A stretch of DNA of 63,450 nt, filler included, from a candidate division NPL-UPA2 bacterium Unc8 (GCA_003574845.1; 4 parts of 4 records of this genome joined end to end with filler, not necessarily neighbours in it), one strand, 5' to 3'. Positions 995 through 15,864 are shown, counted from the whole stretch's first letter. Numbers and translations are program-made. Notes: generated from the sequence alone by a model not told the origin.

Positions 995-1831
995 TTACCC
1001 AAATCTTCCTGTGATATAGTCCTCAGTAACTTTTTCAGAGGGAGTTGTAAACATCTTATTGGTTTTGTTAAATTCAATTAGTTCTCCAAGCATTAGAAAA
1101 GCCGTATAATCTGATACCCGCGCTGCCTGCTGCATATTGTGGGTTACAATAACAATTGTATATTTATCTTTCAAGTTTTGAATTAATTCTTCAACCTTCG
1201 CAGTGGAAGTCGGGTCCAGAGCTGAACAGGGTTCATCAAACAGTATTACCTCCGGCTCAATAACTAATGCCCTGGCAATGCAAAGTCGCTGTTGTTGCCC
1301 TCCGGACAACTTAAAAGCTGATGCATTTAATCTGTCCTTGACCTCATCCCAGAGAACAGCATCTACTAATGCCCTCCTTACTCTTTCTCCGAGGTCACTA
1401 CTTTTTTTTATAAGACCACTAATCCTGAGTCCATAGGCAACGTTCTCAAAGATAGACTTGGGAAAGGGGTTGGACTTTTGGAATACCATCCCTACCCTTC
1501 TTCTAATTTCTACCGCACCTACATTACCGTCATAGATATTTTGGCTGTCTATCATTACTTTTCCCTCAACCCTTACCCCGGGAATAATATCATTCATCCG
1601 ATTAAGTATCCTGATGAAAGTAGACTTGCCACAGCCTGAGGGTCCAATGATAGCAGTAACTTTGTTTGCCTGAATGTCCAGGCTCACATCTTTAAGAGCC
1701 TGGATTTTCCCATAATAAAAACTCAAGTTACGCACCACTATTTTAAATTCTTTATCCGCACGCGACATTCGCTCCCCTCCAGTAGAAGCAGATATATCCG
1801 TTTCATTTAGAAGTGGAGTTTTAGTAAGCAT
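995..1831 (-). CDS. pstB: Phosphate ABC transporter ATP-binding protein (alternative start at 1768 with GGAGG RBS)
   Basis: [37 protein letters not shown]-terminal [10 protein letters not shown]. Confidence 0.97.
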
Positions 1832-1901
1832 TTTTCCTTCTGCGACTTTTTTTAATACTACACTTTGATGGAAATCAAGTCAAGCTTCTTTTCCCCATCT
1901 T

Positions 1902-2744
1902 TTATCTTAACGCTCTGGTATAGCGTCTCATAATTGTATGTACCGATAAATTAACAATAAGCACCATTAATACCAAGAGCGTTGCCGTACCAAAAGCTCT
2001 GGCGATGGCGCCAGGGTGAACTTCAGCGATAGCCAGGAGATACAGATGCAATGACATTGGCCTGACTGAACTAAAGAGTGAGGTAGGAAGCGCCATAAAT
2101 GACCCAACCGTCAACATAATGGCAGCGGTCTCGCCTGCTGCTCTCCCAATCCCAAGTATTATTCCTGTTAGTATACCTGGAGCGGCGCTTTTGAGCACCA
2201 CCCTGCTCACAGTTTGCCATTTCGTAGCGCCCAATGCATAACTGGCTTCTCTATATGACGCTGGCACTGCCTTTATAGACTCCTGAGTAGTTCTGATGGT
2301 CTCATTCAGGATCATACAAGCTAAAACCATTCCTCCTGATAGGATAGAGAAGCCCCATCCTAAAAACACCACAAAGAAAGCAAAGCCAAATAAGCCAAAT
2401 ATTATGGATGGAACTCCAGCCAACCATTCAGCTCCAAAAGTAATTATTTTTGATAGCGGATGCTCACCGGCATATTCAGTTAAATAAATCCCACCTCCAA
2501 TTCCTATGGGGGAGGCAACTGTTGTCGAGATTGCAATGAGACACAAAGTCCCAATTATCATCGACAATATCCCTCCTTCACGACCCCCTGCCCTTGGCAT
2601 GCTGAAAATAAATTCCAGATTAATTATTCCAATACTGCGCATCACCACAAAGCCAATAATAGCTAAAAGAATAGCCAATATTGTTAAACTGGAAATCCAT
2701 AGTACCAATTTGGCAATTTTTTCATTAATGTGTGCTGAAATCAC
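1902..2744 (-). CDS. pstA: Phosphate ABC transporter permease PstA
   Basis: LAGVPSIIFGLFG, EASYALGATKWQT, GRAAGETA; position in operon. Confidence 0.95.
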   Translation of the reverse strand: MISAHINEKIAKLVLWISSLTILAILLAIIGFVVMRSIGIINLEFIFSMPRAGGREGGILSMIIGTLCLIAISTTVASPIGIGGGIYLTEYAGEHPLSKIITFGAEWLAGVPSIIFGLFGFAFFVVFLGWGFSILSGGMVLACMILNETIRTTQESIKAVPASYREASYALGATKWQTVSRVVLKSAAPGILTGIILGIGRAAGETAAIMLTVGSFMALPTSLFSSVRPMSLHLYLLAIAEVHPGAIARAFGTATLLVLMVLIVNLSVHTIMRRYTRALR

Positions 2745-2746
2745 AG

Positions 2747-3589
2747 TTACTGCCCTCGCCTTAACCTATTTGAGATGACAACTAATATTGACACTACTAT
2801 AAACAAGACAACCCCGGTAGCAAAAAGAGCCTGACGATGCGGACCATGTGGAGCATAAGCCATCTCCATGGCAACATTGGCGGTAAGTGTACGGATAGGC
2901 CCTAATACGGAAGTTGGGATAACAGGAAGATTCCCAAGCACCATAATGGCGGCCATAGTCTCTCCTATAGCGCGCCCCGACCCCAATACCACTCCTGCCA
3001 GAATTCCCGAACGGGCAGCAGGTAGAATTATATTTTTGATGGTTTGCCAATGAGTAGCACCTACTGCAAATGAAGCCTCTTTATAACTTTTTGGTACTGC
3101 TTTAATTGCATCTTCAGATATAGTAATAATTGTAGGTAAGGCCATTATTGCCAGAACAATCGAGCCGGCTAATATACTAAATCCAGGTGGGCCTAAGTGA
3201 GTTCTTATAAAAGGCACAAGCACCATAAGCCCAACAAAACCATATACCACTGAAGGAATTCCCGCCAATAATTCAATGGCTGGCCTGAGTATATTTCTCA
3301 TTATTTCAGGAGCGACTTCAGCTAAAAATATTGCCGTCAATATTCCCAGGGGGACGCTGATCAACATTGAGAAAAGAGCCACTAAAAGAGTGCCAATTAT
3401 CATCGGGAAAATCCCAAATATTTCGCGTTCGGGGCGCCAATCCATGCCAAAGAGGAAATTGCCGACCCCTACCTCTGCAATTAAAGGCACCCCAGCCCTG
3501 AAGACAATCATTATGATAAAAGCAATGATGACAAACGAAACCATTGCCGCCACAATCAATGACTTCTCAATAATCCATTCTTTAAGCAT
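2747..3589 (-). CDS. pstC: Phosphate ABC transporter permease PstC
   Basis: ELLAGIPSVVYG, GRAIGETMA, ALFATGVVLF. Confidence 0.95.
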   Translation of the reverse strand: MLKEWIIEKSLIVAAMVSFVIIAFIIMIVFRAGVPLIAEVGVGNFLFGMDWRPEREIFGIFPMIIGTLLVALFSMLISVPLGILTAIFLAEVAPEIMRNILRPAIELLAGIPSVVYGFVGLMVLVPFIRTHLGPPGFSILAGSIVLAIMALPTIITISEDAIKAVPKSYKEASFAVGATHWQTIKNIILPAARSGILAGVVLGSGRAIGETMAAIMVLGNLPVIPTSVLGPIRTLTANVAMEMAYAPHGPHRQALFATGVVLFIVVSILVVISNRLRRGQ

Positions 3590-3609
3590 AAAATTTACTA
3601 CTCAGTGTA

Positions 3610-3724
3610 TTCAGGCTGTAAGCTATGTAGGCTGAAGGGGTCAGGGGTCAGAATTTCCCGATCCCCGATCCCTGATCCCCGTGAACAGTCTTTGTGCCTA
3701 ACAGAGCCTACAGCCTAACAGCCT
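3610..3724. repeat. Intergenic short-period repeat mosaic (GGGGTCA, GATCCCC, CAGCCTAA units)
   Basis: ggggtcaggggtcag, ccgatccccgatccctgatcccc, cctaacagagcctacagcctaacagcct. Confidence 0.75.
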
Positions 3725-4594
3725 TTAATCAACTCTTACCAGTCCTTCATCCGCTACCATTTGCTGTCCTTCCGAGCCAAGCACAAAGTCAATGAACCCC
3801 TGCTCTAATGGTGAAAGCTCACCCATGGTCAAAAATAGGAACGGCCTGGCAATTGCCCAGTCTCCCGCCACCACAGCTGCAGCATCAGGCTTAACTCCGT
3901 CTATTTCGAGAGCTCGCACCGTCGGGTCTACGGCAGGAGAAGCGACATAACTGATAGACGATGGATCACCAGCCACACCGGCTCTGACGCCACCGGTTCC
4001 CACCAGGATAAGTGTTGGCACAGGATCTATTCCCTCATGGACAATCTCTTCAAAGGCATCTCTTGTTCCTGAACCTGCTTCCCTGATTATTACCGTGATT
4101 GGTAAATTTTCGCCACCAACTTTGTTCCAATTTGTAATTTCACCAGTAAATATTTTCTTGAGCTGTTTCATAGTCAAGCCTCTTACTGGATTATTCGGAT
4201 GAACTATTGGAGCTATAGCGTCATGGCAAATTACAAACTCTCTCAAGCCCCATCCAGGCTCATCCCTTCTTAACCAGCGAGAAGCCATTCCTATGTGAAA
4301 GGTCCCTTCCCTGGCACCTACGATTCCAGCGGTTGAGCCTACTGAGTGGGTTTCTACCACTACACCAGGATGCTTATCCATAAATCGCTCTGCCAGGTGA
4401 ACAGCCACTACATATACCGATGAGGAACCCCCAACGACTATTCTTCCTGCTGGTAGTGGTGGCAGTGGCACCTGCGGCGTCACTGCTGGTAGTGGTGGCG
4501 GTGGCACCTGCGGCGCCACTGCCCGAATAATCACGCCAATGCCAATAGCTACCAATACCACTATACCTATTGGTATCCACATTCCCTTTTTCAT
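3725..4594 (-). CDS. pstS: Phosphate ABC transporter substrate-binding protein with an N-terminal membrane anchor and Pro-rich linker
   Basis: GGSSSV, GSTAGI, IGMASR, REAGSGTRDAF; 36-bp tandem duplication at 4447-4518 encodes the Pro-rich linker. Confidence 0.93.
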   Translation of the reverse strand: MKKGMWIPIGIVVLVAIGIGVIIRAVAPQVPPPPLPAVTPQVPLPPLPAGRIVVGGSSSVYVVAVHLAERFMDKHPGVVVETHSVGSTAGIVGAREGTFHIGMASRWLRRDEPGWGLREFVICHDAIAPIVHPNNPVRGLTMKQLKKIFTGEITNWNKVGGENLPITVIIREAGSGTRDAFEEIVHEGIDPVPTLILVGTGGVRAGVAGDPSSISYVASPAVDPTVRALEIDGVKPDAAAVVAGDWAIARPFLFLTMGELSPLEQGFIDFVLGSEGQQMVADEGLVRVD

Positions 4595-5432: not shown

Positions 5433-5450
5433 ATTACGGAAATATTACAG
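5433..5450 (-). promoter_or_regulatory. Second Pho-box-like pair overlapping the phoR stop codon
   Basis: Minus strand CTGTAAT-ATTT-CCGTAAT. Confidence 0.55.
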
Positions 5451-6809
5451 GAAGGTTGAAAAGAGTTGATTTTTAGGGAGAGTGAAGAAGAACTTTGAAC
5501 CTTTATCAATCTTGCTCTCAACACCCACTGTCCCACCGTGTGCCTGAATGATGTGTTTTACAATTGAAAGGCCTAATCCCGTACCGCCTAATTCTCTTGA
5601 GCGGGCTTTGTCCACGCGGTAGAAGCGTTCAAAAAGTCGCGGTAGATGTTTTTGGGGAATACCAATGCCTGTATCAGATATCTCAATCTGTATATCTTTT
5701 TCTTTATCCACTGTTCTGATACATATCCTCCCGTTTTTGGGAGTAAACTTGATTGCGTTATCAAGAAGATTATTAAATGCCCGTTCTATCTTTTCTGAGT
5801 CTATCTCTACTTGAGGAAAGTCAGCAAGGAAATCTATCTCTATTCTATGCCCTTTTTGCTCTATAGCTCCTTTAAAATGAGAGATTACGTCCTCTATTAG
5901 CTCTCTAATATTTGCCAGTTGAAACTCCATCTTAATCTCTTTGGACTCTATTTTGGAGAGTCCAAGTAAATCATTTATTAAATTATTAAGCCTTTCGGTA
6001 TGGGTCTCAATAATATTAAGGAACTTACGGCTATTCTTAGGGTCATCGATAGCGCCATCCTTTAAGGTCTCAATAAATCCTCTGATTGAGGTAAGAGGGG
6101 TACGCAGTTCATGGGATACATTAGCCACAAATTCAATTCGCATTCTCTCAAGTCTCTTAATTTCGGTGATATCATGTAACACTGCTACTACACCTGATAT
6201 ACCTTCTTCGCCCTTAATGGGTAAAGCATGAACTCTAAACATCTTCTCCTCAGAAAGGAAAAGAGTTAGCTCTTTGGTCTGGAGCTTTCCTTTATTCACC
6301 GCCTCTTTTAAGAGATTATTCAATTCATTGTGTCTGATTACCTCCCAGAAGAATTTTCCTATTACTTGAGCTTTACTGAGATTGAAGAGCTTCTCACAGG
6401 CAGAGTTAAAGAGTATCAGCTTCTCATCTCTATCAATGGCTACTACTCCTTCAATCATACTGCTAAGTATTGCTCGCATTTCATTTCTATCCTCTGTAAT
6501 AGTCTGGAGCTTCGTCTTTAGTTCCTCTGCCATCTGGTTGAAGGTGCCAGCTAGCTCATCTATCTCATCATTAGAACGAATCTTTATTCTCTTCGTAAAA
6601 TCTCCATTACCTATATGTTTAGCTAAGCTTTTTATATCTTCCAGTGGCTTGGTGATCATTCGGGCTGCCATAAAACTTACGGCTGAGGCAAAAAATAAAG
6701 TTAGCAATACTGCCCGGAAGTTTAAACTAAATATGCTTACAACCACCATACAGATAATTACAATCCCTACATGGGTCAAAAATAATTTCCAGGTAATCTT
6801 AATCTTCAT
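5445..6809 (-). CDS. phoR: Phosphate regulon sensor histidine kinase (HAMP-PAS-HisKA-HATPase)
   Basis: FVANVSHELRTPLTSI, NLLDNAIKF, RFYRVDKARSRELGGTGLGLSIVKH; adjacent to pst. Confidence 0.92.
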   Translation of the reverse strand: MKIKITWKLFLTHVGIVIICMVVVSIFSLNFRAVLLTLFFASAVSFMAARMITKPLEDIKSLAKHIGNGDFTKRIKIRSNDEIDELAGTFNQMAEELKTKLQTITEDRNEMRAILSSMIEGVVAIDRDEKLILFNSACEKLFNLSKAQVIGKFFWEVIRHNELNNLLKEAVNKGKLQTKELTLFLSEEKMFRVHALPIKGEEGISGVVAVLHDITEIKRLERMRIEFVANVSHELRTPLTSIRGFIETLKDGAIDDPKNSRKFLNIIETHTERLNNLINDLLGLSKIESKEIKMEFQLANIRELIEDVISHFKGAIEQKGHRIEIDFLADFPQVEIDSEKIERAFNNLLDNAIKFTPKNGRICIRTVDKEKDIQIEISDTGIGIPQKHLPRLFERFYRVDKARSRELGGTGLGLSIVKHIIQAHGGTVGVESKIDKGSKFFFTLPKNQLFSTFL

Positions 6810-7491
6810 TACTTTCAAATTTATATCCTACCCCTCTAATAGTAACTATTAATTTAGAAGCTGTCTTTAGTTTTTTACGTAGCCTTCTTATGTGAACATC
6901 TACTGCTCTATCTATTATAAAAGTTTCTTCTCCCCAGGCACTATCCAGAAGTTGGTCGCGAGTGAAGACTCGCCCTGGATTTGAGGCCAAACACTTAAAA
7001 AGATTAAATTCAATTTTGGTAAGTTCAATTGGTTTTCCTTTTGATGTTACTTTATGTCTTGGCGTGTCTATGGTTAAATCTTCTATTTGAATTACTTCCT
7101 TTGGTTTTAGTTTCTCTTCAAGTCTTCTTAAGACAGTTTTAACTCTTGCAATTAATACTTTGGGGCTGAAAGGCTTAGTAATATAATCATCTGCTCCCAG
7201 CTCCAACCCTACTATTATGTCAGACTCCTCTCCCTTAGCAGTCAGTATAATTATGGGAAGTGAGGCTGTCTTTGTATCCTTTTTTAATATTTTACATACC
7301 TCAAGCCCATCCAGGCCTGGCAACATTAAATCTAATATTATCAAGTCAGGGCTTTCTTTTTTGACCAGCTCTAAAGTCTCTTCCCCTGTCATAGCTTTAA
7401 GAACTTCATATCCTTCCTTCTCTAAATTATATTCGAGGAGTTCAAGGATATCCTTTTCATCATCCACCACTAAAATTTTCTTTTTCGCCAT
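6799..7491 (-). CDS. phoB: OmpR-family response regulator PhoB/PhoP
   Basis: Receiver LVVDDE...LDLMLP...KPF and winged helix DRAVDVHIRRLRKK...TIRGVGYK; overlaps phoR. Confidence 0.9.
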   Translation of the reverse strand: MAKKKILVVDDEKDILELLEYNLEKEGYEVLKAMTGEETLELVKKESPDLIILDLMLPGLDGLEVCKILKKDTKTASLPIIILTAKGEESDIIVGLELGADDYITKPFSPKVLIARVKTVLRRLEEKLKPKEVIQIEDLTIDTPRHKVTSKGKPIELTKIEFNLFKCLASNPGRVFTRDQLLDSAWGEETFIIDRAVDVHIRRLRKKLKTASKLIVTIRGVGYKFESNED

Positions 7492-7528: not shown

Positions 7529-7690
7529 TCCCCTTGTGCTTCTGTGCCTCTCTAATAGCTTTCAGCTTTCAGCCTTTAGCCTTAAGGATTCAAGGGGTCA
7601 AGAGGTCAAGGGTTCAAGTGAATCTAAAAAGAAAACAAACACTCGAACCCTCGAATCCTTGAACCCTATTTTCTAATAGTCTTCAGCCTA
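7529..7690. repeat. Repeat mosaic: TGTGCC units, AGCTTTC heptamers and an inverted pair of 8-mer arrays (TTCAAGGG...CTTGAACC)
   Basis: ggattcaaggggtcaagaggtcaagggttcaagtg ... cactcgaaccctcgaatccttgaaccct. Confidence 0.75.
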
Positions 7691-7699
7691 TCCGCCTTA

Positions 7700-7972
7700 G
7701 GGGTCGTATCAGAATAATGTTAACCATTTGCCAGAGGTGATTTTGGAGCGAGACAAGGAACGAAGAGTGAAGCGTAGCCAAAGCGCTACGGAAGCGATGA
7801 GCGACGCAGTCGCAGCCCAAAAGCGACCTGGCCCTTCGGGGAGTCCCGTCTTTGGGCCATTGCGGCGTTGCTCCTCGGTTATGTGCCGCAGAGGGCACAC
7901 TACCCTTGTAGCTCCTTGCACTGACCTCAAATCCGGGACTCCAAATAGTCAAGATTATTCTGATACGACCCC
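7700..7972. mobile_element. 273-bp MITE with TTA target-site duplication (IS5/PIF-Harbinger-like signature)
   Basis: Perfect 19-bp TIR GGGGTCGTATCAGAATAAT, extending to 31 bp with 3 mismatches; TTA at 7697-7699 and 7973-7975; no credible transposase inside. Confidence 0.85.
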
Positions 7973-7975
7973 TTA

Positions 7976-8713
7976 CTACAATAAACTATTATCCCATTTT
8001 TCTACATAGGAGGGGCTTTTACCTTTTAGAATTTCCACCAGGGAAAGGAGGGTTTTGCGTGCCTCCCCCAGGGGGTAATAGAAACCGCTCCAATTCTCGC
8101 TATCTTCGCCGTCGTGGTTGGGGATAACATTTTTAAATTGGCAAGCCTCTTTTAGTTCTCCATAGGCGCTGCGAGCCCTTTTTTCAATGTTCTCCAGATC
8201 GGCAAGGGATAGGATGCCTTTCTGCTTTTCCGTTCTCCTTAAAAGCTTTCTTTTCATTACCTCGGTTACCAACTCGGGAAGCAGGAGTTTGTCTCCGAGA
8301 CTTTGGAAAAAGATAATCTCCTCCCGGGAAAGAGGAGAGATAAAGACGCTTATTTTTTTGATGTTTTTGAGGGATGGATGAAGCAGCAGGGTTTTGCCGA
8401 TAAAAGGATTACCTTCAAAGAGCATATCCGCTTTCTTTAAACTGTTTTTTAGCTCCTCAATATCTACTGCCTGGAGGTCTCCCCGCACATCCAGGACCAG
8501 GAATTTTTTTTTCTTTTGTAATCCTTTAATGAATAAACGAGAACGAAAGTAGTAGTCCTTGCCTTCTGTTTCCCGGGGACGGGGCGAACGGCTGTTATAG
8601 AGAATAAGTTTATTCATTCTGTCGGCTATCTCGGGATAGAATTTCTCCAGGGCCTGATGCAGGGGGCTTTTCCCTGCGCCGGAAGGGCCGCTAATGACTA
8701 TTAGTTTTCCCAT
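7976..8713 (-). CDS. Guanylate kinase-like P-loop kinase (divergent)
   Basis: LIVISGPSGAGKS, SRSPRPRETEGKDYYF; atypical C-terminus. Confidence 0.75.
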   Translation of the reverse strand: MGKLIVISGPSGAGKSPLHQALEKFYPEIADRMNKLILYNSRSPRPRETEGKDYYFRSRLFIKGLQKKKKFLVLDVRGDLQAVDIEELKNSLKKADMLFEGNPFIGKTLLLHPSLKNIKKISVFISPLSREEIIFFQSLGDKLLLPELVTEVMKRKLLRRTEKQKGILSLADLENIEKRARSAYGELKEACQFKNVIPNHDGEDSENWSGFYYPLGEARKTLLSLVEILKGKSPSYVEKWDNSLL

Positions 8714-9282
8714 ATCGCCTCCACGGAACAGTCAAATATCTCTTCAAGGAGGCCCTTTTTCTTATTGAAACCGTAAAGGTTGGTCTCGGATATTTCTCCT
8801 CCCTTAAGGATGAATCGCCAGGCTCCGCCTTTCTTCTTTATCTTTATATCTTTAATACTACTTGCATGATCGCGATCAAGACCGTCAGCGACCCTTATAA
8901 TTGCCGAAAGTTTGTTAACCATATCTTTCTCTTTATTTTTAAGGTTACCGAAGCCTTTATGTTTCCGGCCGGGATGAGCTTTGCGATGATAACGGGCAAT
9001 GAGGGCAATTAATGTTTTCTCGTGTTCATCAAGATAATGGAAACTAATCTCATTAATCATCTTTTGGGAAACTTTATGGTGTTTTGTCGGCGATGCCGTC
9101 AGGCCTAAATCGTGCAGAAGACAGGCCCCTCCCAGGAGAAAACGGGCATAATTATCCAATTGATGACATTCTTGTAACTGGTCAAATATAGAAAAGGATA
9201 GCTTCTTTACCTGAAGGCTGTGGGGGATATCAGGGGATAGCTCGTTCATCTTTTTCTCAAGCTCTTTATTTTTCTTTTCCAT
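8701..9282 (-). CDS. Stand-alone Ppx/GppA-type C-terminal HD domain protein
   Basis: HSLQV...LLHDLG...HHKVS...IARYHRK...IIRVADGLDRDH; no N-terminal ASKHA domain. Confidence 0.8.
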   Translation of the reverse strand: MEKKNKELEKKMNELSPDIPHSLQVKKLSFSIFDQLQECHQLDNYARFLLGGACLLHDLGLTASPTKHHKVSQKMINEISFHYLDEHEKTLIALIARYHRKAHPGRKHKGFGNLKNKEKDMVNKLSAIIRVADGLDRDHASSIKDIKIKKKGGAWRFILKGGEISETNLYGFNKKKGLLEEIFDCSVEAIWEN

Positions 9283-9299
9283 TCTTTATCTTCCTCCTA

Positions 9300-9425
9300 T
9301 AAATTCCTAAATTCAAATGTCAAATTTCAAATAAAATCCCAATGACAAAACCCAAATTATTTGTCATTAAGGAATTTGTCATTTATTTGTCATTTGAGAT
9401 TTGTCATTTGTCATTGAAATTTCTA
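9300..9425. repeat. Imperfect inverted arrangement of heptamer-based repeats (CAAAT/AATGACAAA versus TTTGTCA)
   Basis: aaattcaaatgtcaaatttcaaa...caatgacaaaa versus tttgtcatt x5. Confidence 0.75.
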
Positions 9426-9429
9426 GACC

Positions 9430-10851
9430 TTAAGGTAATACCAATCCTTTTTTAACCTCGGGGTCGGTTTCCTCCCATAACTTTTTGTATTCCCGATAAA
9501 AGAAATTCCAGCGGGAAGGATTTATATCTTTACAGACAGGAATAAACTCCTCAAATGTTGATTTCCAGCGAGCCTTTTGTTTCTTTTTGTTCTTTGAGTT
9601 AAGATGTCTGAGAGAATCAAGTCTATCGGCCAGTTTTATCATCTTTGTCGACTCACCACCACTTTTTATCTTTTGAAGATAAACATCCATACTCTTGATT
9701 TCCCTGTCCTCTTTGGTTAAATTCCAGACCAGCGAAGCCACCCTTTTGCCAAAATCCTTCTCTATCTTTTCCCGGGTAGCTACCGTCCCTTTTATCTCTA
9801 AGGTATCATGGAGTAGAGCGGCGGCAATAATGTCCGGCTCGCTGACCTTAAGTTCCCCTGCCAGAATAATCGCCGTTCTCAGCGGGTGAACAATATGAGT
9901 ATTCCTGGCATACAGGAGAGCATTTTTTATTTTACCCTCCTCTTTTTTTCTTTTAATCTCTTTCGGTAAAAGCAGAAAGGCGGCCTGGAGGGCCCTTCCA
10001 TCATCAATATCAGGAAAGGCGGCAAAGTCCTTTTCATAGGAGAAGATAACTTCCGATTGTTCTTTAAATTCTTTATTGAACAAAGATGCTCTCCTTTTGT
10101 GCAGCCGGTTGCTTGTTAGCGCTTGCAGGCGGGTTAAATTCCTGTCTTTAAGTTTCTGGCTGTTCATCTTCTGGATAAGTACATCCAGATCACGGATATC
10201 GCCCATTACCTGCTGCAGAGCATGCATATTATTTAACCTAACTTCGGTAATCCAGGGGAAGACGGGCTGGAGAATTTCGGATGTATAGCGGAGTTTTTTT
10301 AAAGAGATTCTCATGCGGTGGAAGGCATTAATGTTTCCACCCTCGGCGTCTTCTCCAGGGGAGAAGAAATTCTTAAAAAGAGTAGCCAGGACAATTTTTG
10401 TCTGATACTCCAGATCCGTATCGGCAAGGGGGATGAGGATTTTTTTAATATCCAGCCTTTTTAAAAAATCCAGCGAAAAAGACTCAACCGCACAGCGGAC
10501 ATCTCCCTCTCCCTGTTCAATGCCTTTATTTAATTTATTCAGGAATAACCTAACGAATTGGTTCTTCCTCCGGAAAATATTGTTTATGATCTCCACCTCT
10601 ACATGAATGTCTCGCAACTCTCCCATGGGGTTCATAATGGTCTTTGGTTTTTGGTAGAGCGATTTTTTTACCTTTGTCCGGGGAAGCAGGCGCAAGAGCG
10701 AGAATACCGCCCGGAGCCTTCTTATGGAAACTCTCAAGTCGTGAAGAGTATCGGCATTTATCTCCTTTTTTGCTCTCTCAAGTTCCTTCTTAAATCCGGC
10801 CTCCCTTTTCCAAAAGGATTCCTCTATAACCTTCAAGCTCCCATTTACCAT
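9430..10851 (-). CDS. CHAD domain fused to a RelA/SpoT-hydrolase-like (Mesh1-like) HD domain
   Basis: CHAD motifs LHDLRVSIRRLR, MGELRDIHV, FHRMRISLKKLRYTSE, LQQVMGDIRDLDV; HD part HPLRTA...AALLHDTLE...IKLADRLDSLR. Confidence 0.85.
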   Translation of the reverse strand: MVNGSLKVIEESFWKREAGFKKELERAKKEINADTLHDLRVSIRRLRAVFSLLRLLPRTKVKKSLYQKPKTIMNPMGELRDIHVEVEIINNIFRRKNQFVRLFLNKLNKGIEQGEGDVRCAVESFSLDFLKRLDIKKILIPLADTDLEYQTKIVLATLFKNFFSPGEDAEGGNINAFHRMRISLKKLRYTSEILQPVFPWITEVRLNNMHALQQVMGDIRDLDVLIQKMNSQKLKDRNLTRLQALTSNRLHKRRASLFNKEFKEQSEVIFSYEKDFAAFPDIDDGRALQAAFLLLPKEIKRKKEEGKIKNALLYARNTHIVHPLRTAIILAGELKVSEPDIIAAALLHDTLEIKGTVATREKIEKDFGKRVASLVWNLTKEDREIKSMDVYLQKIKSGGESTKMIKLADRLDSLRHLNSKNKKKQKARWKSTFEEFIPVCKDINPSRWNFFYREYKKLWEETDPEVKKGLVLP

Positions 10852-11171
10852 TTCTCCATTATCCTCCGGAGGTTAGATATAAGTGCCGTCATTTTTTTTA
10901 TATCCCTGAACCTTCCCTTCTCTGGTTGGACCTTAAGGCTCCTCAAGCTTCTTTGCATAATACGGATATCCTTAAGCCAGTCTTCCTCTTCGGCTGATTC
11001 GCGCTCTGAGATGGCCAGGACAATAGATTCAATCTGAGCCTGTCTCTTAATCAGATGGGCGGAGACCGTTTCTTCCATTAAAGAGCGCAGATATTTCAAT
11101 TCCGATTGGACGGAAGCGGCGACTTTAGGCAGCTCGCTTACCCGGGGTTTCTTATCCCTTGCCGTTGGCAA
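10845..11171 (-). CDS. Hypothetical basic alpha-helical protein in the putative polyphosphate cluster
   Basis: Overlaps both neighbouring genes (translational coupling); no motif recognised. Confidence 0.7.
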   Translation of the reverse strand: MPTARDKKPRVSELPKVAASVQSELKYLRSLMEETVSAHLIKRQAQIESIVLAISERESAEEEDWLKDIRIMQRSLRSLKVQPEKGRFRDIKKMTALISNLRRIMEKW

Positions 11172-11856
11172 TATAATCCTCTATATGCAGCTTCAGTTCA
11201 TCGGACACGCGGCGACTGGAGCGGTTGGCATTAATGGTGATAAAATTATATTTTGCTGCCATCTTGGAATACTCTTGCTGCATTAATCGTTGATATTTCC
11301 TAAAACTGGTAAATATTTCGGACGAGACCCTCATGTCCATTCCGGATTCCCACCAGTCAAAATAGGTTTGTTTTCGCAGGTTTCTTTCAGTTAAAATATT
11401 GAGGCTTACCCTGAGATGGAAGACGAGGTCGGGAACAAGAGCGACCTCACATATATTTTCTACCCATTCGGGGAGAAGACCGCGAACGGTACTGCGGGCG
11501 ATAAGAGTATAGATATATCTATCGGCAAGTATAACGCATCCGGCTTTCAAATTAGGGATAATAATATTTTCTAACTGGTCAAAGAAATCGGTAATATAAA
11601 AAAGGGTGGAGGTTCGTTCGTCAAGAGTATTCCCTTTCTTTGCCTGCTCTATTTCCCGACCGAGAAGAATGGAGCGTCTTAATCCTACATTTACGGTGGA
11701 ATATCCCTTTGCTTCCAGCCAATCGGTCAGGATTCTAATATAGGTGGAGCGTCCCGAACCATCCGGGCCCTCAATAACGAAAAGGTACCCTTTCAGGTCT
11801 TCTGTCTTCACTCCCGGGAGAGATTTCCCGAAAAATTCAAAAGGTTTTTTTCTCAT
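11152..11856 (-). CDS. Thymidylate kinase-like protein with altered P-loop (putative regulatory subunit of a heteromeric polyphosphate kinase)
   Basis: IEGPDGSGRST (K to R), ILADRYIYT, WESGMDM; ATGA overlap with its paralogue. Confidence 0.8.
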   Translation of the reverse strand: MRKKPFEFFGKSLPGVKTEDLKGYLFVIEGPDGSGRSTYIRILTDWLEAKGYSTVNVGLRRSILLGREIEQAKKGNTLDERTSTLFYITDFFDQLENIIIPNLKAGCVILADRYIYTLIARSTVRGLLPEWVENICEVALVPDLVFHLRVSLNILTERNLRKQTYFDWWESGMDMRVSSEIFTSFRKYQRLMQQEYSKMAAKYNFITINANRSSRRVSDELKLHIEDYIANGKG

Positions 11857-12533
11857 CTTTTACTTCTCTGGCGAAAAGAAGGAAGGTCAATTTTTTCTTT
11901 GACGACCTTTCTTGCCATTTCCTGTTGTTCATTTATGGGTAAAGAAGCATCAATTATTTCAAAGTCATTCTCTCCGACAATCCTCTCATATTCCTGAAAT
12001 ATCCTCTCCTGAAAAAGTCCAAAACTTTCCTCTATGTCATCGGATAGCCCCATATCCATCCCGGCTTCAAAATATTTCAGTTTTGTCCTTCCGCTCAGAA
12101 TTCTCCTGACTGCTGTTTTCAGAGGAATACGGCAGTAGAACGAAATATGAGGCTTAATAGCGAAAGAATAAAGATTTCTCACCCATTCCCGGTCACATCC
12201 TCTAACCACATCACGGGCAAAAGCAGTGTAGACATATCTATCACAGATGACTACGAAGCCGGCCTGCAGGAGCGGATAAATCTCCCGCACATATCGGGTA
12301 GTAAAATCTGCAGAGTGAACAAGACTGAAGGTGGTGGGAGTCAGAAGCCTTTTCTTCTTTCCTCTCCTGGTGGCACTTTTTACCATTGGAGATGAGTTCC
12401 ATTCACTTAAGAAAACCTTGATTTTTTGTGATTCCAGGAACCGCTTGAGTAAGAAGTTTTGGGTGGACTTGCCGGCTCCATCCAATCCCTCAAAGACAAT
12501 CAACCTTCCTTTTATACTTTTATTATCCTGCAT
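11853..12533 (-). CDS. Thymidylate kinase-like protein with intact P-loop (putative catalytic subunit)
   Basis: FEGLDGAGKSTQ, SEWNSS, VICDRYVYTAFARD, YFEAGMDMG. Confidence 0.85.
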   Translation of the reverse strand: MQDNKSIKGRLIVFEGLDGAGKSTQNFLLKRFLESQKIKVFLSEWNSSPMVKSATRRGKKKRLLTPTTFSLVHSADFTTRYVREIYPLLQAGFVVICDRYVYTAFARDVVRGCDREWVRNLYSFAIKPHISFYCRIPLKTAVRRILSGRTKLKYFEAGMDMGLSDDIEESFGLFQERIFQEYERIVGENDFEIIDASLPINEQQEMARKVVKEKIDLPSFRQRSKR

Positions 12534-12594
12534 CAAGATATCCTGCTAATGGCATGGGTTACTGAGCTTTTACTCTTATTATACCACACTAATG

Positions 12595-15500
12595 TTACGA
12601 TTTTATGACAATCACTTTAATGTTAAGCTCTCTGCCATCAGTAGTAAGGGTAACAGCTCCTGACTTAGCCGTTGAGTATGTTACTATACCCATTTTTGCA
12701 TATCTGGCAAGAGTGGCCTCTTTTGCGTTAACAGGAAAAAACTCCGCGCAGGGCGACCAGCCATACTGATTGATGGCAAAAGCAGGAGATATGGCAGTAA
12801 TAAATTCCTCTACCTGTTTTTCAGGATTGCCATGAACTGGAATAAGCATCACATCGCCTAAAAGTTTATCAGGATATTTTCCTGTCAATCTCTTTTGCGC
12901 GGCAACGCCTACCTGAGCAGGTAGAATAATAACTTTTTCTCCATAACTGATTCTTAAAACAAGAGAGAAGCTATCCAGACCTCTAACTGTGCTGGGAACA
13001 AGCGCCTCAATTTTCAATCCATCCTCTGCATAAAGAAGCCTGCTTTTTCTAATTGTCTTTATCTGAAGCGGGGCATCCTCAAGAAGCTCTATCAAAGCCA
13101 TATATTCAGTATAAATTTTCTGCGGATGAGGCATAAACGGATTGCTCAACAGCCGCCAGTCATCAAGGAGAATAAGGAATTCTTCATAAGAGAGCTCTGC
13201 CCTTAACATTTCTTCCTTTACCGGCAATACTACTCTTTTGACAGGAATATGCTCTACTACATAAGCAAGCCCACCGATGTTTCCCGGCCTTAAAGAAGTA
13301 ATAATAATATAATCTAATTGACTAATCCGGTAATGTGAGAGAGTTTCTCTTATCGTCTCGCCAAAACTCCACTCTTCTTTTCGTGGGCCGCCATCAATGA
13401 GAATACTTTTTCCTTCCGGAGTAGATACGAGCATCGCATTTCCAAAACCAGCATCAAAAAATACTATCTTTAATAGTGGTTTTCTCGCCATTAAGTAGGC
13501 TGCTGCTCCAACAGTTATAAAAAGAGAAATGACGACGAGCATCGCAAGCAGCTTCCTTCTCTGCCAAAACTTTCTTTTGACCTCCAGGATTTTCTGGAAA
13601 ATCTCTTTATGAAAAATAAAGGAGAAAATTAAGCCATACCAAAAGATAAGCTTTCCTGTCCCATAAGCGCCCACATAGGGAAAGGGAATAAAATCATGCC
13701 AGGTTCTGGCAAGCCCTAAAAAACCCTGACATAGAACAGTGTTAAACCCATTTATAGCCATAGCAAAACCATTGCCAATAAATCCCAATCCAATAACAGA
13801 AAATAAGATTTCTCCCAGCCCTGCCACCCAACCAAGCATTACAATCGCCCCAAGAAGCGGTATCGCTAAAATATTGGCATATAAGCCAGCGATGGGAAAC
13901 CGCAGGAAAAACACTGCTGAGAGCGGCCAGAGCATACCCAATTGAATAGCAAGCTGTGCAAAGCAAAAACGCAGTAAGTAGCGCCCCCGCTTGCGTGAGA
14001 AGAGCTCTATCATTAAATCTCTTCCTGTCCATCGCAGACAGATAAAAAAGGTAGCAATGCTCGCTGCTCCAAGAAGAAGGGTGGCTGTTAAAAACTGCGA
14101 CTGGTGGAGCCAGCTATGCCCGGGAAAATGAATCCAGGCTGGAAACCAATCAAGAAGAGGTGGAATTTTCTCCACTGCCGGCAAGATTCCTCTTACAACA
14201 CTCAGGTGTTGAACTATTCCGCTCAGTGAAAAAAGATTCATCCCTACCAATATTCCAATTAATGGAAAACCGATAAACCCGCGAATGCCAGTTCCCTTCA
14301 TCATAACTACTTTCTCAATCGGCGGAGTGATATAAGCCAGGGAGAGAACGGCGGCGAAGGAAAGAACAAAGGAGACATCGGTAAGCCATAATGGATTAGT
14401 AAAAAGAACGACAACCGCGGAAAGAAAAATAGTTATTCCCACTGAAGTCACAAGAGGCACTCTTAATATATCATAAAGCAGCATTCCTAAGGAAAACATC
14501 AGTGCTGCTCGCTGGGTAGCTGGCGAAGCGCCGGAGAGAAAGACAAAAATCAGTAACCCGAAGCTGACCAACAAAAATCTCATACTCCTCGGAAGATGCA
14601 AAAGACGAGCTGCTCCCATGAGAAGAAGAGCAATGAATCCGGTATGAAGCCCTGAAAGAGCAAGGACATGAGCTATACCAACGGCACGAAATCGTTCTCT
14701 TATTTCACCTGAGAGTCCTCCTCGCATTCCAAGGGTCACCGCCGCCAGGAAAGCGCTTTCCGGATAGGGAACAGTGCGCTCAATAGTTTCAAAGATGCGA
14801 TGGCGTAGCCTCAGGGATAATTTTATTAGTGAGTTCACATCACCTTCACCAAGAAAACACAACTGCTCCGGCTCTCTGATACGGCTGGTAACAGCATAAA
14901 CATTTCTTACTCTCAAGTAACGAGCAAAATCAAAGCCGGCAGGGTTCCTTCGCCCCCGGGGAGGATGCAGGAAGGAAATTACCTCCACACGGTCACCGAA
15001 GGACATTTTCTCATAATACTCTCCAATAGTGGGATAGACTCTTGCTTGAATATAGCCCGTTCTTCCTCTCAGGATTTTTTTCTTATCCTGATAACACTCA
15101 TAGCGAAGAATTTCCATATGCGGGCAAGGATAGTATCTTGCCAAACCTCTTTCTATAAGTTGTGAATTCAAGAGTCTTCCATCAAGCTCCACCACTGCCA
15201 GTATCCTTCCAAACTTATCCAGTGGACGGTTCTCCTCTACGTAGAGAGTAACTTTGCGATGAAGGACCATTGAGCGAGTAAAGCTGATAGCTTCTTTTGC
15301 TCCTTTCTCGCCTAAATCAGGTGCATCCACTCCTAATAATCTCACCACTTTTCCTTCATAAGTAAAGAGAGTATCCCCATCAAAAACACCGATTATCTTC
15401 TGGGTTATTACCTTATGAGGAACTTTTAAATCTAATTTTAAATAGGCATCCGGCTGCGGATGTGGAACAATTTTCTCCGGCTTTATGGTAAGAATACTGA

Positions 15501-15864
15501 ACTCTTCCCTTCTGTCGGGGTCGCGGACAACCGTTCCCAGAATAAGCACCTCTTCTCTATCATTAAGAAAATTAGTAATGTGATAAGGCGAAGAAGTATC
15601 AGTTGCCTGAGCGTGCCTCGCCATTCCCAGGAAAAGCAGGAATAAACAGAAAAATATCAGTGCCTGAGGATAAGGCTTCTCTGTGAGGATAGCTCTCACT
15701 CCGATGATAATAAACAGGATTGCCACTACCCGGAGAGCTACTGAGAAAGACGGGGGGAAGAGAATCCATCCCGAGAGGATAGTGGAGAGAGTAACTCCAG
15801 CAATAAAAGAAGCGCAAAGTGGAATGATGCCACTCTGCCTTGGTAGGAGGGGGGAGTCGGTCAC
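12595..15864 (-). CDS. comEC: ComEC/Rec2 competence protein with inserted thermonuclease domain and degenerate MBL domain
   Basis: RNPAGFDFARYL, GIAHVLALSGLH, SPATQRAALM, SFVLSFAAV, FFDAGFGNAMLV...LIDGG. Confidence 0.9.
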   Translation of the reverse strand: MTDSPLLPRQSGIIPLCASFIAGVTLSTILSGWILFPPSFSVALRVVAILFIIIGVRAILTEKPYPQALIFFCLFLLFLGMARHAQATDTSSPYHITNFLNDREEVLILGTVVRDPDRREEFSILTIKPEKIVPHPQPDAYLKLDLKVPHKVITQKIIGVFDGDTLFTYEGKVVRLLGVDAPDLGEKGAKEAISFTRSMVLHRKVTLYVEENRPLDKFGRILAVVELDGRLLNSQLIERGLARYYPCPHMEILRYECYQDKKKILRGRTGYIQARVYPTIGEYYEKMSFGDRVEVISFLHPPRGRRNPAGFDFARYLRVRNVYAVTSRIREPEQLCFLGEGDVNSLIKLSLRLRHRIFETIERTVPYPESAFLAAVTLGMRGGLSGEIRERFRAVGIAHVLALSGLHTGFIALLLMGAARLLHLPRSMRFLLVSFGLLIFVFLSGASPATQRAALMFSLGMLLYDILRVPLVTSVGITIFLSAVVVLFTNPLWLTDVSFVLSFAAVLSLAYITPPIEKVVMMKGTGIRGFIGFPLIGILVGMNLFSLSGIVQHLSVVRGILPAVEKIPPLLDWFPAWIHFPGHSWLHQSQFLTATLLLGAASIATFFICLRWTGRDLMIELFSRKRGRYLLRFCFAQLAIQLGMLWPLSAVFFLRFPIAGLYANILAIPLLGAIVMLGWVAGLGEILFSVIGLGFIGNGFAMAINGFNTVLCQGFLGLARTWHDFIPFPYVGAYGTGKLIFWYGLIFSFIFHKEIFQKILEVKRKFWQRRKLLAMLVVISLFITVGAAAYLMARKPLLKIVFFDAGFGNAMLVSTPEGKSILIDGGPRKEEWSFGETIRETLSHYRISQLDYIIITSLRPGNIGGLAYVVEHIPVKRVVLPVKEEMLRAELSYEEFLILLDDWRLLSNPFMPHPQKIYTEYMALIELLEDAPLQIKTIRKSRLLYAEDGLKIEALVPSTVRGLDSFSLVLRISYGEKVIILPAQVGVAAQKRLTGKYPDKLLGDVMLIPVHGNPEKQVEEFITAISPAFAINQYGWSPCAEFFPVNAKEATLARYAKMGIVTYSTAKSGAVTLTTDGRELNIKVIVIKS

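What the first reader, a model, noticed from the sequence alone, without database searches (positions are those of the whole stretch)
7976..12533. Candidate non-canonical bacterial polyphosphate system: paired dTMP-kinase-like genes, CHAD-HD, Ppx-HD and a GMP-kinase-like gene, beside phoBR-pst
Seen: six co-oriented, mostly overlapping genes. One TMK-like paralogue has an intact P-loop (GLDGAGKST); the other has K changed to R (GPDGSGRST); both share an E[AS]GMDM motif. Known: CHAD domains bind polyphosphate, and Ppx carries this type of C-terminal HD domain. From memory (verify), a heteromeric family-3 polyphosphate kinase made of two thymidylate-kinase-like subunits, one catalytic and one regulatory, was described in Sulfolobus. 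Inference: this is a bacterial PPK3-type module with extra uncharacterised parts (a 108-aa helical protein and a divergent guanylate kinase) that may link polyP to guanine nucleotide or alarmone pools under Pho control.
Basis: partly seen in the sequence, partly recalled or inferred. Interest (0 to 1): 0.8.

Follow-up and report, generated by a model that had tools for sequence, protein, structure and literature searches.

The report
Bacterial PPK3 polyphosphate kinase operon variant
The two "thymidylate kinase" genes are the catalytic and helper subunits of PPK3, a polyphosphate kinase described in 2026, here in an uncultured bacterium with four unusual partner genes whose roles are still open.

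Summary
Six co-oriented minus-strand genes (7976-12536) lie directly upstream of phoB-phoR-mgsA-pstSCAB.

The two Tmk-like genes are a cPPK3/rPPK3 pair. TMKa matches the S. tokodaii cPPK3 homologue (PDB 2plr/5h70) at E 7e-58. In a tree, both proteins fall in sister clades set far apart from canonical Tmk. The a-then-b gene order recurs in 79 of 80 related loci.

Hofmann et al. (JBC 2026, PMC12995831) defined PPK3 and already predicted bacterial PPK3 operons with CHAD, PPX and Pst neighbours. The core is therefore a new member of a known kind.

Four partner genes are unusual:
- A 108-aa protein of an unnamed family (KPEKGRRKD motif) sits right after rPPK3 in 5 of 80 loci.
- A CHAD + Mesh1/SpoT-type HD fusion is rare, with 12 clusters found.
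- A Ppx is reduced to its HD domain III.
- A member of a conserved, uncharacterised guanylate-kinase-fold family is not PPK3-linked in other lineages.

The helper subunit keeps DRY and has Walker-A Lys->Arg, whereas Sulfolobaceae-type rPPK3 has DGY.

The proposed guanine-nucleotide or alarmone link is not supported. The window's whole genome is not held, so a separate tmk/gmk and the absence of ppk1/ppk2 could not be tested.

The parts
11853..12536 (-). cPPK3-like catalytic subunit (TMKa, 227 aa). It has an intact Walker A (GLDGAGKST), DRY and an EAGMD lid.
   Evidence: It matches PDB 2plr/5h70 (the S. tokodaii cPPK3 homologue) at E 7.2e-58, against 2e-16 or weaker for true Tmks. It sits in the a-clade of the tree. 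Family conservation is shown.
11152..11856 (-). rPPK3-like helper subunit (TMKb, 234 aa). Walker A is GPDGSGRST (Lys->Arg); DRY is retained.
   Evidence: It sits in the b-clade (SH-aLRT 98). R36 is invariant in 18 of 18 aligned orthologues. The Sulfolobaceae-type second subunits are closer to TMKb than to TMKa. It overlaps TMKa by 4 bp.
10845..11171 (-). 108-aa helical protein of an unnamed family with a near-invariant KPEKGR(R)KD motif. It is a recurrent gene immediately downstream of rPPK3.
   Evidence: 65 cluster representatives at E<=1e-3. Alignment A2 has G86 invariant and K85, R87, D90 at 90% or more. No Pfam family. A profile finds it directly after the rPPK3 gene in L004, L005, L026, L038 and L065.
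9430..10851 (-). CHAD (polyphosphate-binding) domain fused to a Mesh1/SpoT-type HD phosphohydrolase domain (473 aa).
   Evidence: CHAD 95.5 bits and HD_4 46.8 bits. Best solved relatives are CHAD 6qv7 and Mesh1 3nqw/5vxa, at about E 1e-13. H322, H348, D349, E352 and D409 are invariant. Only 12 clusters share the architecture.
9283..9429 (.). 147-bp spacer that splits the cluster into two overlapping gene groups. It carries an array of ATGACAAAT repeats.
   Evidence: Five exact copies on the minus strand and two one-mismatch copies on the plus strand lie within 9317-9414. There are no other exact copies in the window.
8701..9282 (-). Stand-alone Ppx/GppA domain III (HD-type) protein of 193 aa. 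It lacks the ASKHA catalytic domains I and II.
   Evidence: PF21447 68.6 bits and HD 32.9 bits. It aligns with the C-terminal part of full-length Ppx from other PPK3 loci and shares the H..HD..HHK..RYHRK..D pattern. Stand-alone forms occur in 3 of 38 loci with a domain-III hit.
7976..8713 (-). Member of a conserved, uncharacterised guanylate-kinase-fold family (245 aa).
   Evidence: The family is 245-251 aa with about 58% identity over its full length. AF2 model pLDDT is 86.8. The top Foldseek hits are all GMP kinases at 18-24% identity. TIGR03263 scores 57.4 bits against a cut-off of 160.45.
6799..7491 (-). phoB response regulator, downstream on the same strand.
   Evidence: TIGR02154 PhoB 277.6 bits.
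5445..6818 (-). phoR/pnpS sensor kinase.
   Evidence: NF046044 PnpS 452 bits and TIGR02966 PhoR 337 bits, both above their cut-offs.
995..4594 (-). pstS-pstC-pstA-pstB phosphate ABC transporter.
   Evidence: PstS family 188.9 bits (under its cut-off of 206.6), PstC 292, PstA 257 and PstB 395 bits. ORFs are listed.

Best explanation
This is a bacterial PPK3 polyphosphate (polyP) operon placed with the Pho regulon genes.

Inferred by homology to the characterised Sulfolobus enzyme:
- TMKa is the catalytic subunit. It moves phosphate reversibly between polyP and ADP/ATP.
- TMKb is a non-catalytic or weakly catalytic partner that activates TMKa by forming a hetero-oligomer.
- In this lineage, in the other bacteria and in Nitrososphaerales, the helper carries a Walker-A Lys->Arg change and keeps DRY. 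Sulfolobaceae-type helpers have lost the DRX arginine.

Shown or inferred for the accessory genes:
- The CHAD domain of the next large protein binds polyP. This is established for CHAD domains in general and inferred here.
- The fused Mesh1/SpoT-like HD domain keeps its metal ligands, so it is most likely a metal-dependent phosphohydrolase held on the polymer.
- The 108-aa protein is a recurrent PPK3-linked accessory of unknown role.
- The second gene group (HD-only Ppx remnant plus GK-fold kinase) is a lineage-specific addition at a position where related operons carry a PPK2.

Expression under phosphate control is inferred from position only.
For: - TMKa matches the S. tokodaii cPPK3 homologue 2plr/5h70 at E 7.2e-58. 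TMKb matches it at 8e-35. Canonical Tmks score 2e-16 or weaker. The paper names 5h70 as the cPPK3 homologue.
- A tree of 155 rows gives an a-clade of 76 (support 90) and a b-clade of 74 (98). Together they are split from 5 canonical Tmks by a branch of length 3.06 (98). Eleven rows were dropped for length.
- Nitrososphaerales rows, a group the paper names as PPK3 carriers, lie inside both clades.
- a-then-b adjacency holds in 79 of 80 loci.
- In 14 Sulfolobaceae-like loci the second, overlapping subunit is closer to TMKb than to TMKa. One a-type subunit there matches 2plr at E 2.7e-104.
- R36 of Walker A is invariant in 18 of 18 b-type sequences.
- Neighbours of the kind listed in the paper are present: CHAD, a Ppx domain, pstSCAB and phoBR.
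- Five of 5 relatives' genomes have a further Tmk-family gene beside the pair.
- The 108-aa family follows the rPPK3 gene in 5 of 80 loci from several phyla.
Against: - No biochemical data exist for any bacterial PPK3. The activity is transferred from one archaeal enzyme.
- The helper keeps the DRY arginine, whose loss the paper uses to explain why rPPK3 is inactive. It could therefore retain some activity.
- The operon lacks SixA and the ASKHA part of Ppx found in the archetype.
- The window's genome is not held. A separate tmk, and the absence of ppk1 and ppk2, are untested. The 63-kb window holds none of them, which says little.
- Among relatives, PPK1 is present in 2 of 5 and PPK2 in 4 of 5. 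PPK3 therefore need not be the only polyP kinase.
- Promoter and terminator scans were not above shuffled expectation, and no shared Pho-box-like motif was found. Pho control is only positional.
Confidence: 0.82

Rival explanations
1. The core is PPK3, but the GK-fold kinase and possibly the HD-only protein are unrelated neighbours. The GK-like gene would be a housekeeping-type nucleotide or other kinase that happens to sit here in this lineage.
For: - The GK-like family is widespread and highly conserved.
- In one other phylum, 13 of 35 genomes have it. All 7 loci examined there lack PPK3, CHAD or Ppx neighbours.
- It is absent from all 80 PPK3 loci of other species.
- A 147-bp spacer separates its gene group from the PPK3 genes.
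Against: - It overlaps the Ppx-type HD gene by 13 bp. That HD gene is a polyP-system part in other loci.
- The closest relative's operon has a PPK2, another P-loop phosphotransferase, at the same position.
- Homologues at about 60-80% identity of TMKa, CHAD-HD and the GK-like protein are listed with equal longest-contig lengths (6249 and 66748). This hints that they share contigs. It is an inference, because the contigs could not be fetched.
Confidence: 0.3
2. The module couples polyP to guanine nucleotide or alarmone pools: the CHAD-HD protein hydrolyses (p)ppGpp on polyP granules, and the GK-like protein phosphorylates GMP.
For: - The HD domain's nearest families are RelA/SpoT and Mesh1 hydrolases.
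- Metal-ligand residues are invariant.
- The GK-like protein has the GMP-kinase fold and keeps the SR..R..E..DY.F phosphate-clamp segment.
- From recall, not from a call: ppGpp is known to inhibit Ppx in E. coli.
Against: - No RelA_SpoT synthetase domain was found in the two relatives with the clearest CHAD-HD fusion, one of them an archaeon (incomplete MAGs).
- The hydrolase ED pair is E plus a variable residue. The position aligned with the Asn of Mesh1's DKLDNL segment is Ser in 90% or more of the 12 sequences.
- The GK-like family has V/L and LQA where GMP kinases have FxE and YGT. The roles of those residues in guanine binding are recalled, not tested.
- It scores 57.4 bits against the 160.45-bit cut-off of TIGR03263.
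Confidence: 0.1
3. The two Tmk-like proteins are ordinary or specialised (d)NMP kinases and have nothing to do with polyP.
For: - Both pass the Pfam Thymidylate_kin threshold.
- TMKa just passes TIGR00041 (84.5 against a cut-off of 83.25 bits).
- According to the preprint, the S. tokodaii homologue was first reported as an unusual thymidylate kinase.
Against: - A long, well-supported branch separates them from canonical Tmks.
- Relatives carry a separate, much higher-scoring Tmk at about 150 bits, against 65-85 bits for the pair.
- The pair is constantly linked with Ppx, CHAD and PPK2 genes.
- The paper found no dTMP kinase activity for the Sulfolobus pair.
Confidence: 0.04

Closest known systems
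SaPPK3 of Sulfolobus acidocaldarius (Saci_2019 cPPK3 + Saci_2020 rPPK3; operon sixA-ppx-cPPK3-rPPK3-CHAD), Hofmann et al., J Biol Chem 2026, PMC12995831
   Same: - Two adjacent, overlapping Tmk-fold paralogues in the order catalytic then helper.
- They belong to the same clades as the archaeal subunits.
- A CHAD protein is encoded next to them, with phosphate-uptake genes nearby.
   Different: - The helper subunit keeps DRY and has Walker-A Lys->Arg. The Sulfolobaceae-type helpers examined here have DGY.
- There is no SixA, and Ppx is reduced to domain III.
- CHAD is fused to an HD hydrolase.
- There is an extra 108-aa gene and a GK-fold gene.
- The host is an uncultured bacterium.
Predicted bacterial PPK3 operons (same paper, section 'Origin and evolution of PPK3'; the 80 loci fetched here)
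   Same: The c/r pair sits with polyP-related neighbours.
   Different: Counts for the 80 loci:
- 47 have an ASKHA Ppx, 14 a PPK2, 13 a ROK-family kinase and 0 a PPK1.
- 3 have a CHAD+HD_4 fusion and 0 a full-length GK-like gene.
- 5 have the 108-aa family.
The window combines the rare features.
Mesh1 / small alarmone hydrolases and the hydrolase domain of Rel/SpoT (PDB 3nqw, 5vxa, 7qpr, 1vj7)
   Same: The HD_4 family match is above threshold. The HPL..., LLHD and KLADRLD segments align, and the His, His-Asp and Asp positions are invariant.
   Different: - It is fused to CHAD.
- The second acid of the ED pair is not conserved, and the Asn of Mesh1's DKLDNL segment aligns with a near-invariant Ser.
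- It occurs in genomes where no alarmone synthetase was found.
Ppx/GppA exopolyphosphatase (E. coli PPX domains I-IV)
   Same: The 193-aa protein is homologous to domain III and aligns with that part of the full-length Ppx genes of other PPK3 loci.
   Different: It lacks the ASKHA domains I and II. A review (PMC12248826, one passage read) says these form the active site.
Guanylate kinase (Gmk; PDB 2j41, 2an9, 1gky)
   Same: It has the same fold, P-loop and N-terminal phosphate-clamp segment.
   Different: - It has only 18-24% identity to solved GMP kinases.
- Other residues occupy the FxE and YGT positions.
- It has an enlarged basic lid (RRKLLRRT.KQKG) and a conserved C-terminal NHDGEDSENW..FYYP motif.
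- It scores well below the NCBIfam cut-off.

Membership tests
PPK3 (family-3 polyphosphate kinase) | Two adjacent Tmk-fold paralogues encoded together (catalytic and regulatory) | tested here: met
   Both genes hit PF02223 and overlap by 4 bp. The same order holds in 79 of 80 related loci.
PPK3 (family-3 polyphosphate kinase) | Placement in the PPK3 clade, apart from canonical dTMP kinases | tested here: met
   The tree shows this with five canonical Tmks as outgroup. The best solved relative is the cPPK3 homologue 2plr/5h70. Saci_2019 and Saci_2020 themselves were not in the tree. Sulfolobaceae-like pairs were compared by BLAST and alignment only.
PPK3 (family-3 polyphosphate kinase) | Catalytic subunit with intact P-loop, DRX arginine and lid | tested here: met
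   TMKa has GLDGAGKST, CDRY and EAGMD, conserved across 81 a-type sequences.
PPK3 (family-3 polyphosphate kinase) | Regulatory subunit lacks the DRX arginine (as stated in the paper) | tested here: not met
   TMKb and all 18 aligned b-type orthologues keep D112, R113 and Y114. Their Walker-A lysine is arginine instead. The 12 Sulfolobaceae-like helpers aligned do show DGY.
PPK3 (family-3 polyphosphate kinase) | Operon neighbours from polyP and phosphate metabolism (PPX, CHAD, SixA, Pst) | tested here: met
   CHAD, Ppx domain III, phoBR and pstSCAB are present. SixA and the ASKHA part of Ppx are absent from the window.
PPK3 (family-3 polyphosphate kinase) | Separate canonical tmk elsewhere; PPK1 and PPK2 mostly absent | not testable with these tools
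   No genome is held for the window. In 5 relatives' genomes a further Tmk is present in 5 of 5, PPK1 in 2 of 5 and PPK2 in 4 of 5.
PPK3 (family-3 polyphosphate kinase) | Reversible polyP:ADP phosphotransfer; helper enhances activity | not testable with these tools
   This needs enzyme assays.
CHAD domain proteins (phosins) | CHAD profile match above threshold | tested here: met
   PF05235 95.5 bits against a cut-off of 25.6, residues 25-227. It matches solved CHAD 6qv7/3e0s at E 1.7e-13.
RelA/SpoT-type hydrolase (HD_4; Mesh1, small alarmone hydrolases) | HD_4 match with metal-binding His, His-Asp and Asp | tested here: met
   PF13328 46.8 bits against 27.2. H322, H348, D349 and D409 are invariant in 12 of 12 sequences.
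RelA/SpoT-type hydrolase (HD_4; Mesh1, small alarmone hydrolases) | Conserved Glu-Asp pair after the HD motif (its role is recalled, not from a call) | tested here: not met
   The motif is LLHDT.E followed by a variable residue and an invariant K-G. Mesh1 has HDvvED at the aligned place.
Ppx/GppA exopolyphosphatase | ASKHA domains I and II (PF02541) that form the active site | tested here: not met
   Only PF21447 (domain III) and HD match, and the protein is 193 aa. A tblastn of full-length Ppx against the window finds only the domain III part.
Guanylate kinase (Gmk) | Equivalog-level profile score | tested here: not met
   TIGR03263 57.4 bits against a cut-off of 160.45.
Guanylate kinase (Gmk) | Guanylate-kinase fold and P-loop | tested here: met
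   AF2 model pLDDT 86.8. The 32 best listed Foldseek matches are GMP kinases.
Guanylate kinase (Gmk) | Guanine-recognising residues (FxE Glu, YGT; roles recalled) | tested here: not met
   The profile alignment to S. aureus Gmk 2j41 puts 'fvv' opposite 'FiE' and 'dlqal' opposite 'yYGTp'.

The most novel reading that the evidence does not exclude
In this lineage the classical Ppx has been replaced. The CHAD-anchored Mesh1-like HD domain, perhaps together with the HD-only remnant of Ppx, would be the polyP-degrading or polyP-end-processing enzyme, held on the polymer by CHAD. The GK-fold kinase would be a second polyP-linked phosphotransferase occupying the slot that PPK2 fills in the closest relative's operon. 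The 108-aa KPEKGRRKD protein would be a so far unrecognised PPK3 or polyP-granule partner.

Points in favour:
- No ASKHA Ppx was found in the two relatives that carry the clearest CHAD-HD fusion (incomplete MAGs).
- The HD metal ligands are invariant.
- The 108-aa gene keeps its position after rPPK3 in several phyla.
Probability: 0.2. Interest if true: 0.65.

Novelty: new variant of a known kind. Interest (0 to 1): 0.4.

Why it matters
PPK3 was characterised only in one archaeon. Databases still label its thousands of bacterial homologues 'dTMP kinase'.

This locus adds three things:
- The bacterial and Nitrososphaerales helper subunit is altered in a different way from the Sulfolobaceae-type one. 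Walker-A Lys->Arg with DRY kept raises the question of whether it is truly inactive.
- It gives a short list of recurrent but unstudied partners: the 108-aa family, the CHAD-HD fusion, the HD-only Ppx and the GK-fold family.
- It gives a candidate for polyP breakdown in organisms where no classical Ppx was found.

If the partners act on polyP, they would widen the known polyP enzyme set. If they do not, the locus is one more PPK3 operon.

Tried and rejected
- **Whole-genome checks for tmk, ppk1 and ppk2**. No genome is held for the window, so relatives' genomes were used instead.
- **Complex prediction of TMKa + TMKb + the 108-aa protein as partner**. No verdict: score 0.00, and controls were not run. 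It counts neither for nor against binding.
- **Context of the 108-aa family in metagenome contigs**. There were only 4 loci. Two are the same organism as the window. Two are distant relatives in another context, beside a sigma-54-type activator and a STAS-like gene.
- **Pfam and Atlas searches of the 108-aa family**. Only chance-level coiled-coil hits and generic helical-bundle look-alikes appeared.
- **Function of the GK-like family from its neighbours**. In one phylum the conserved neighbours are a secreted protein, a dockerin-like protein, a heptosyltransferase and an ECF sigma factor, which is not informative. The family was not found in 65, 401 and 5 further genomes.
- **Promoter and terminator scan**. 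Counts were near shuffled expectation and were not used.
- **Pho-box search.** The ATGACAAAT array of the spacer does not recur upstream of pstS, phoB or TMKa, so it was not called a Pho box.
- **Rfam on the 273-bp element**. Only a chance-level hit.
- **Our-findings look-ups by place and by sequence** returned nothing.
- **Print searches for the CHAD-HD fusion** ('CHAD' with 'alarmone hydrolase', and 'CHAD domain' with 'HD domain' and 'polyphosphate'). They returned one paper, PMC6416229. The passages read treat CHAD and small alarmone hydrolases separately.
- **Supplements of PMC12995831** (Fig. S16, S19, Tables S2-S3, Data S1) are closed. They may list this lineage, the helper-subunit motifs or these neighbour families.

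Full report
**Observation**

One search lists six minus-strand ORFs between 7976 and 12536.
- TMKa: 11853-12536, 227 aa.
- TMKb: 11152-11856, 234 aa.
- A 108-aa ORF: 10845-11171.
- A 473-aa ORF: 9430-10851.
- A 193-aa ORF: 8701-9282.
- A 245-aa ORF: 7976-8713.

The first four overlap by 4, 20 and 7 bp. A 147-bp spacer follows. The last two overlap by 13 bp.

Pfam and NCBIfam give these matches:
- Thymidylate_kin for both kinases.
- CHAD plus HD_4 (the RelA/SpoT hydrolase type) for the 473-aa protein.
- Ppx/GppA domain III plus HD for the 193-aa protein.
- A partial Guanylate_kin match for the 245-aa protein.
- Nothing for the 108-aa protein.

Downstream on the same strand lie phoB, phoR/pnpS, methylglyoxal synthase and pstSCAB. 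Upstream is a ComEC-family gene.

**What the kinase pair is**

I read the abstract and sections 7, 8 and 9, and passages of the preprint.
- It shows that Saci_2019 (cPPK3) and Saci_2020 (rPPK3) form a heteromeric, reversible polyphosphate kinase.
- It names PDB 5h70 (S. tokodaii STK_15430) as a cPPK3 homologue.
- It states that the PPK3 clade consists mainly of bacterial dTMPK paralogues, whose neighbours include PPX, SixA, CHAD and PstC/PstS.

TMKa matches 2plr/5h70 at E 7.2e-58 and TMKb at 8e-35. True thymidylate kinases reach only 2e-16 and 1e-12.

The best 80 loci were kept. In 79 of those 80, an a-type gene is followed at once by a b-type gene. The exception ends at its contig end.

A maximum-likelihood tree of 155 rows was built after dropping 11 rows for length.
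- It gives an a-clade of 76 (SH-aLRT 90) and a b-clade of 74 (98).
- Together they are separated from five canonical Tmks by a branch of 3.06 (98).
- The window's proteins pair with those of an uncultured bacterium (L001).
- Nitrososphaerales rows sit inside both clades.

A sample of 401 genomes from the phylum of a Nitrososphaerales carrier gave 29 with a match. Fourteen of these form a more distant group. One a-type subunit of that group matches 2plr at E 2.7e-104, so the group is Sulfolobaceae-like. Its overlapping second subunit is always closer to TMKb than to TMKa. TMKb is therefore the counterpart of rPPK3.

**A difference in the helper subunit**

The paper explains the inactivity of rPPK3 by loss of the DRX arginine. 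The 12 Sulfolobaceae-like helpers aligned here do have DGY. TMKb, the bacterial helpers and the Nitrososphaerales helpers keep DRY and have an arginine in place of the Walker-A lysine. R36, D112, R113 and Y114 are invariant in 18 of 18 sequences. Whether this form is silent is open.

**The accessory genes**

*The 108-aa protein.* It belongs to a real but unnamed family.
- There are 65 cluster representatives at E<=1e-3.
- The alignment shows a near-invariant KPEKGR(R)KD motif.
- There is no Pfam family.
- The Atlas model is a generic helical bundle.
- A profile of the family finds a member directly after the rPPK3 gene in five of the 80 loci: L004, L005, L026, L038 and L065, from several phyla.
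- Two distant members lie in another context.

*The CHAD + HD_4 protein.* This architecture is rare.
- Only 12 clusters among the listed hits share it. The next hits are long RelA/SpoT enzymes that cover the HD part alone.
- Among the 80 loci it is clear in L001 and in a Methanoliparum MAG (L002). It is weaker in L020.
- The HD part is nearest to Mesh1 and SpoT/Rel hydrolase domains.
- His, His-Asp and Asp positions are invariant. The Glu-Asp pair is reduced to Glu.
- No RelA_SpoT synthetase domain was found in the genomes of L001 and L002.
- No ASKHA Ppx was found there either.
- Both genomes are incomplete MAGs, so these are absences of detection only.

*The 193-aa protein.* It is the HD-type domain III of Ppx as a separate gene.
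- It aligns with the C-terminal part of the full-length Ppx genes of other PPK3 loci and shares their H..HD..HHK..RYHRK..D pattern.
- Stand-alone forms occur in 3 of 38 loci with a domain III hit.
- According to a review passage, the Ppx active site lies between domains I and II.

*The 245-aa protein.* It belongs to a conserved family of 245-251 aa, with about 58% identity over the full length across many lineages.
- Its model (pLDDT 86.8) matches only GMP kinases, at 18-24% identity.
- The P-loop and the SR..R..E..DY.F segment are kept.
- The FxE and YGT positions are occupied by other residues.
- The lid is enlarged and basic, and a C-terminal NHDGEDSENW..FYYP motif is conserved.
- It is absent from all 80 PPK3 loci.
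- It was found in 13 of 35 genomes of one other phylum, where 7 of 7 loci examined have no polyP-related neighbour.
- It was not found in 65, 5 and 401 further genomes.
- In the closest relative's operon the same position holds a PPK2.
- Across the 80 loci, 14 have a PPK2, 13 a ROK-family kinase directly after rPPK3, 47 an ASKHA Ppx and none a PPK1.

**Conservation of the six-gene set**

Two metagenome contigs (L087, L088) carry the same six genes at 98-100% protein identity. They are the same organism. Homologues at 60-80% identity of TMKa, CHAD-HD and the GK-like protein are listed with equal longest-contig lengths. This suggests, but does not show, that they share contigs. Those contigs could not be fetched.

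**Verdict**

It is already in print as a family, including its bacterial spread. Earlier reports of this scan reached the same reading for other genomes.

What remains new is the combination of rare partners and the different helper-subunit signature. The guanine-nucleotide or alarmone link has no support. The 63-kb window holds no further tmk, gmk, ppk1, ppk2, full Ppx or RelA/SpoT gene, which says little.

The supplements of PMC12995831 were closed. They may bear on the helper motifs and on which neighbours were already catalogued.

Noticed in passing
window 7700-7972: A 273-bp GC-richer element with perfect 19-bp terminal inverted repeats lies between the GK-like gene and phoB. It is present in the window and in L087 but cleanly absent from the otherwise near-identical L088. 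It folds far better than shuffles (z -7.6). There is no Rfam family. It looks like a MITE-type insertion or a mobile structured RNA.
   Followed up: partly
window 9317-9414: An array of ATGACAAAT units lies in the 147-bp spacer before the Ppx-HD gene: five exact copies on the minus strand and two one-mismatch copies on the plus strand. There are no other exact copies in the window. L087 and L088 differ by 26 bp in this spacer. It is a possible regulator-binding array.
   Followed up: partly
window 7560-7690: Upstream of phoB there is an imperfect long inverted repeat (GGATTCGAGGGTTCGAG ... CTTGAACCC..CTTGAATCC). It is flanked by GGCTGAA(A)G(C/A)T..ATTAGA direct repeats.
   Followed up: no
L003, L004, L005, L015, L036, L040, L047, L050, L051, L053, L055, L058, L064 (about 1.4-1.9 kb after the cPPK3 start): Thirteen of 80 PPK3 loci carry a ROK-family (ASKHA) kinase directly after rPPK3. 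In L003 and L004 a stand-alone Ppx-type HD protein follows it. This is a second recurrent PPK3 operon type.
   Followed up: partly
L057:13839-15128 (minus strand): One 429-aa ORF carries hits to both the CHAD domain and a Ppx-domain-III-type HD. This would be another way of tethering an HD domain to CHAD.
   Followed up: no
L139 and L140 (Sulfolobaceae-like cPPK3 matches): The cPPK3 matches are reported with one in-frame TGA each.
   Followed up: no
window 12595-15864: The ComEC-family protein (1089 aa) also matches thermonuclease-type profiles near residues 156-247 and metallo-beta-lactamase-type profiles at its C-terminus. It ends 58 bp before the cPPK3 gene.
   Followed up: no
L089:7917-8123 and L090:7722-8291: Distant members of the 108-aa family lie beside a STAS-like gene. 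In L090 one follows a sigma-54-type activator. Both lie away from any PPK3 genes.
   Followed up: no
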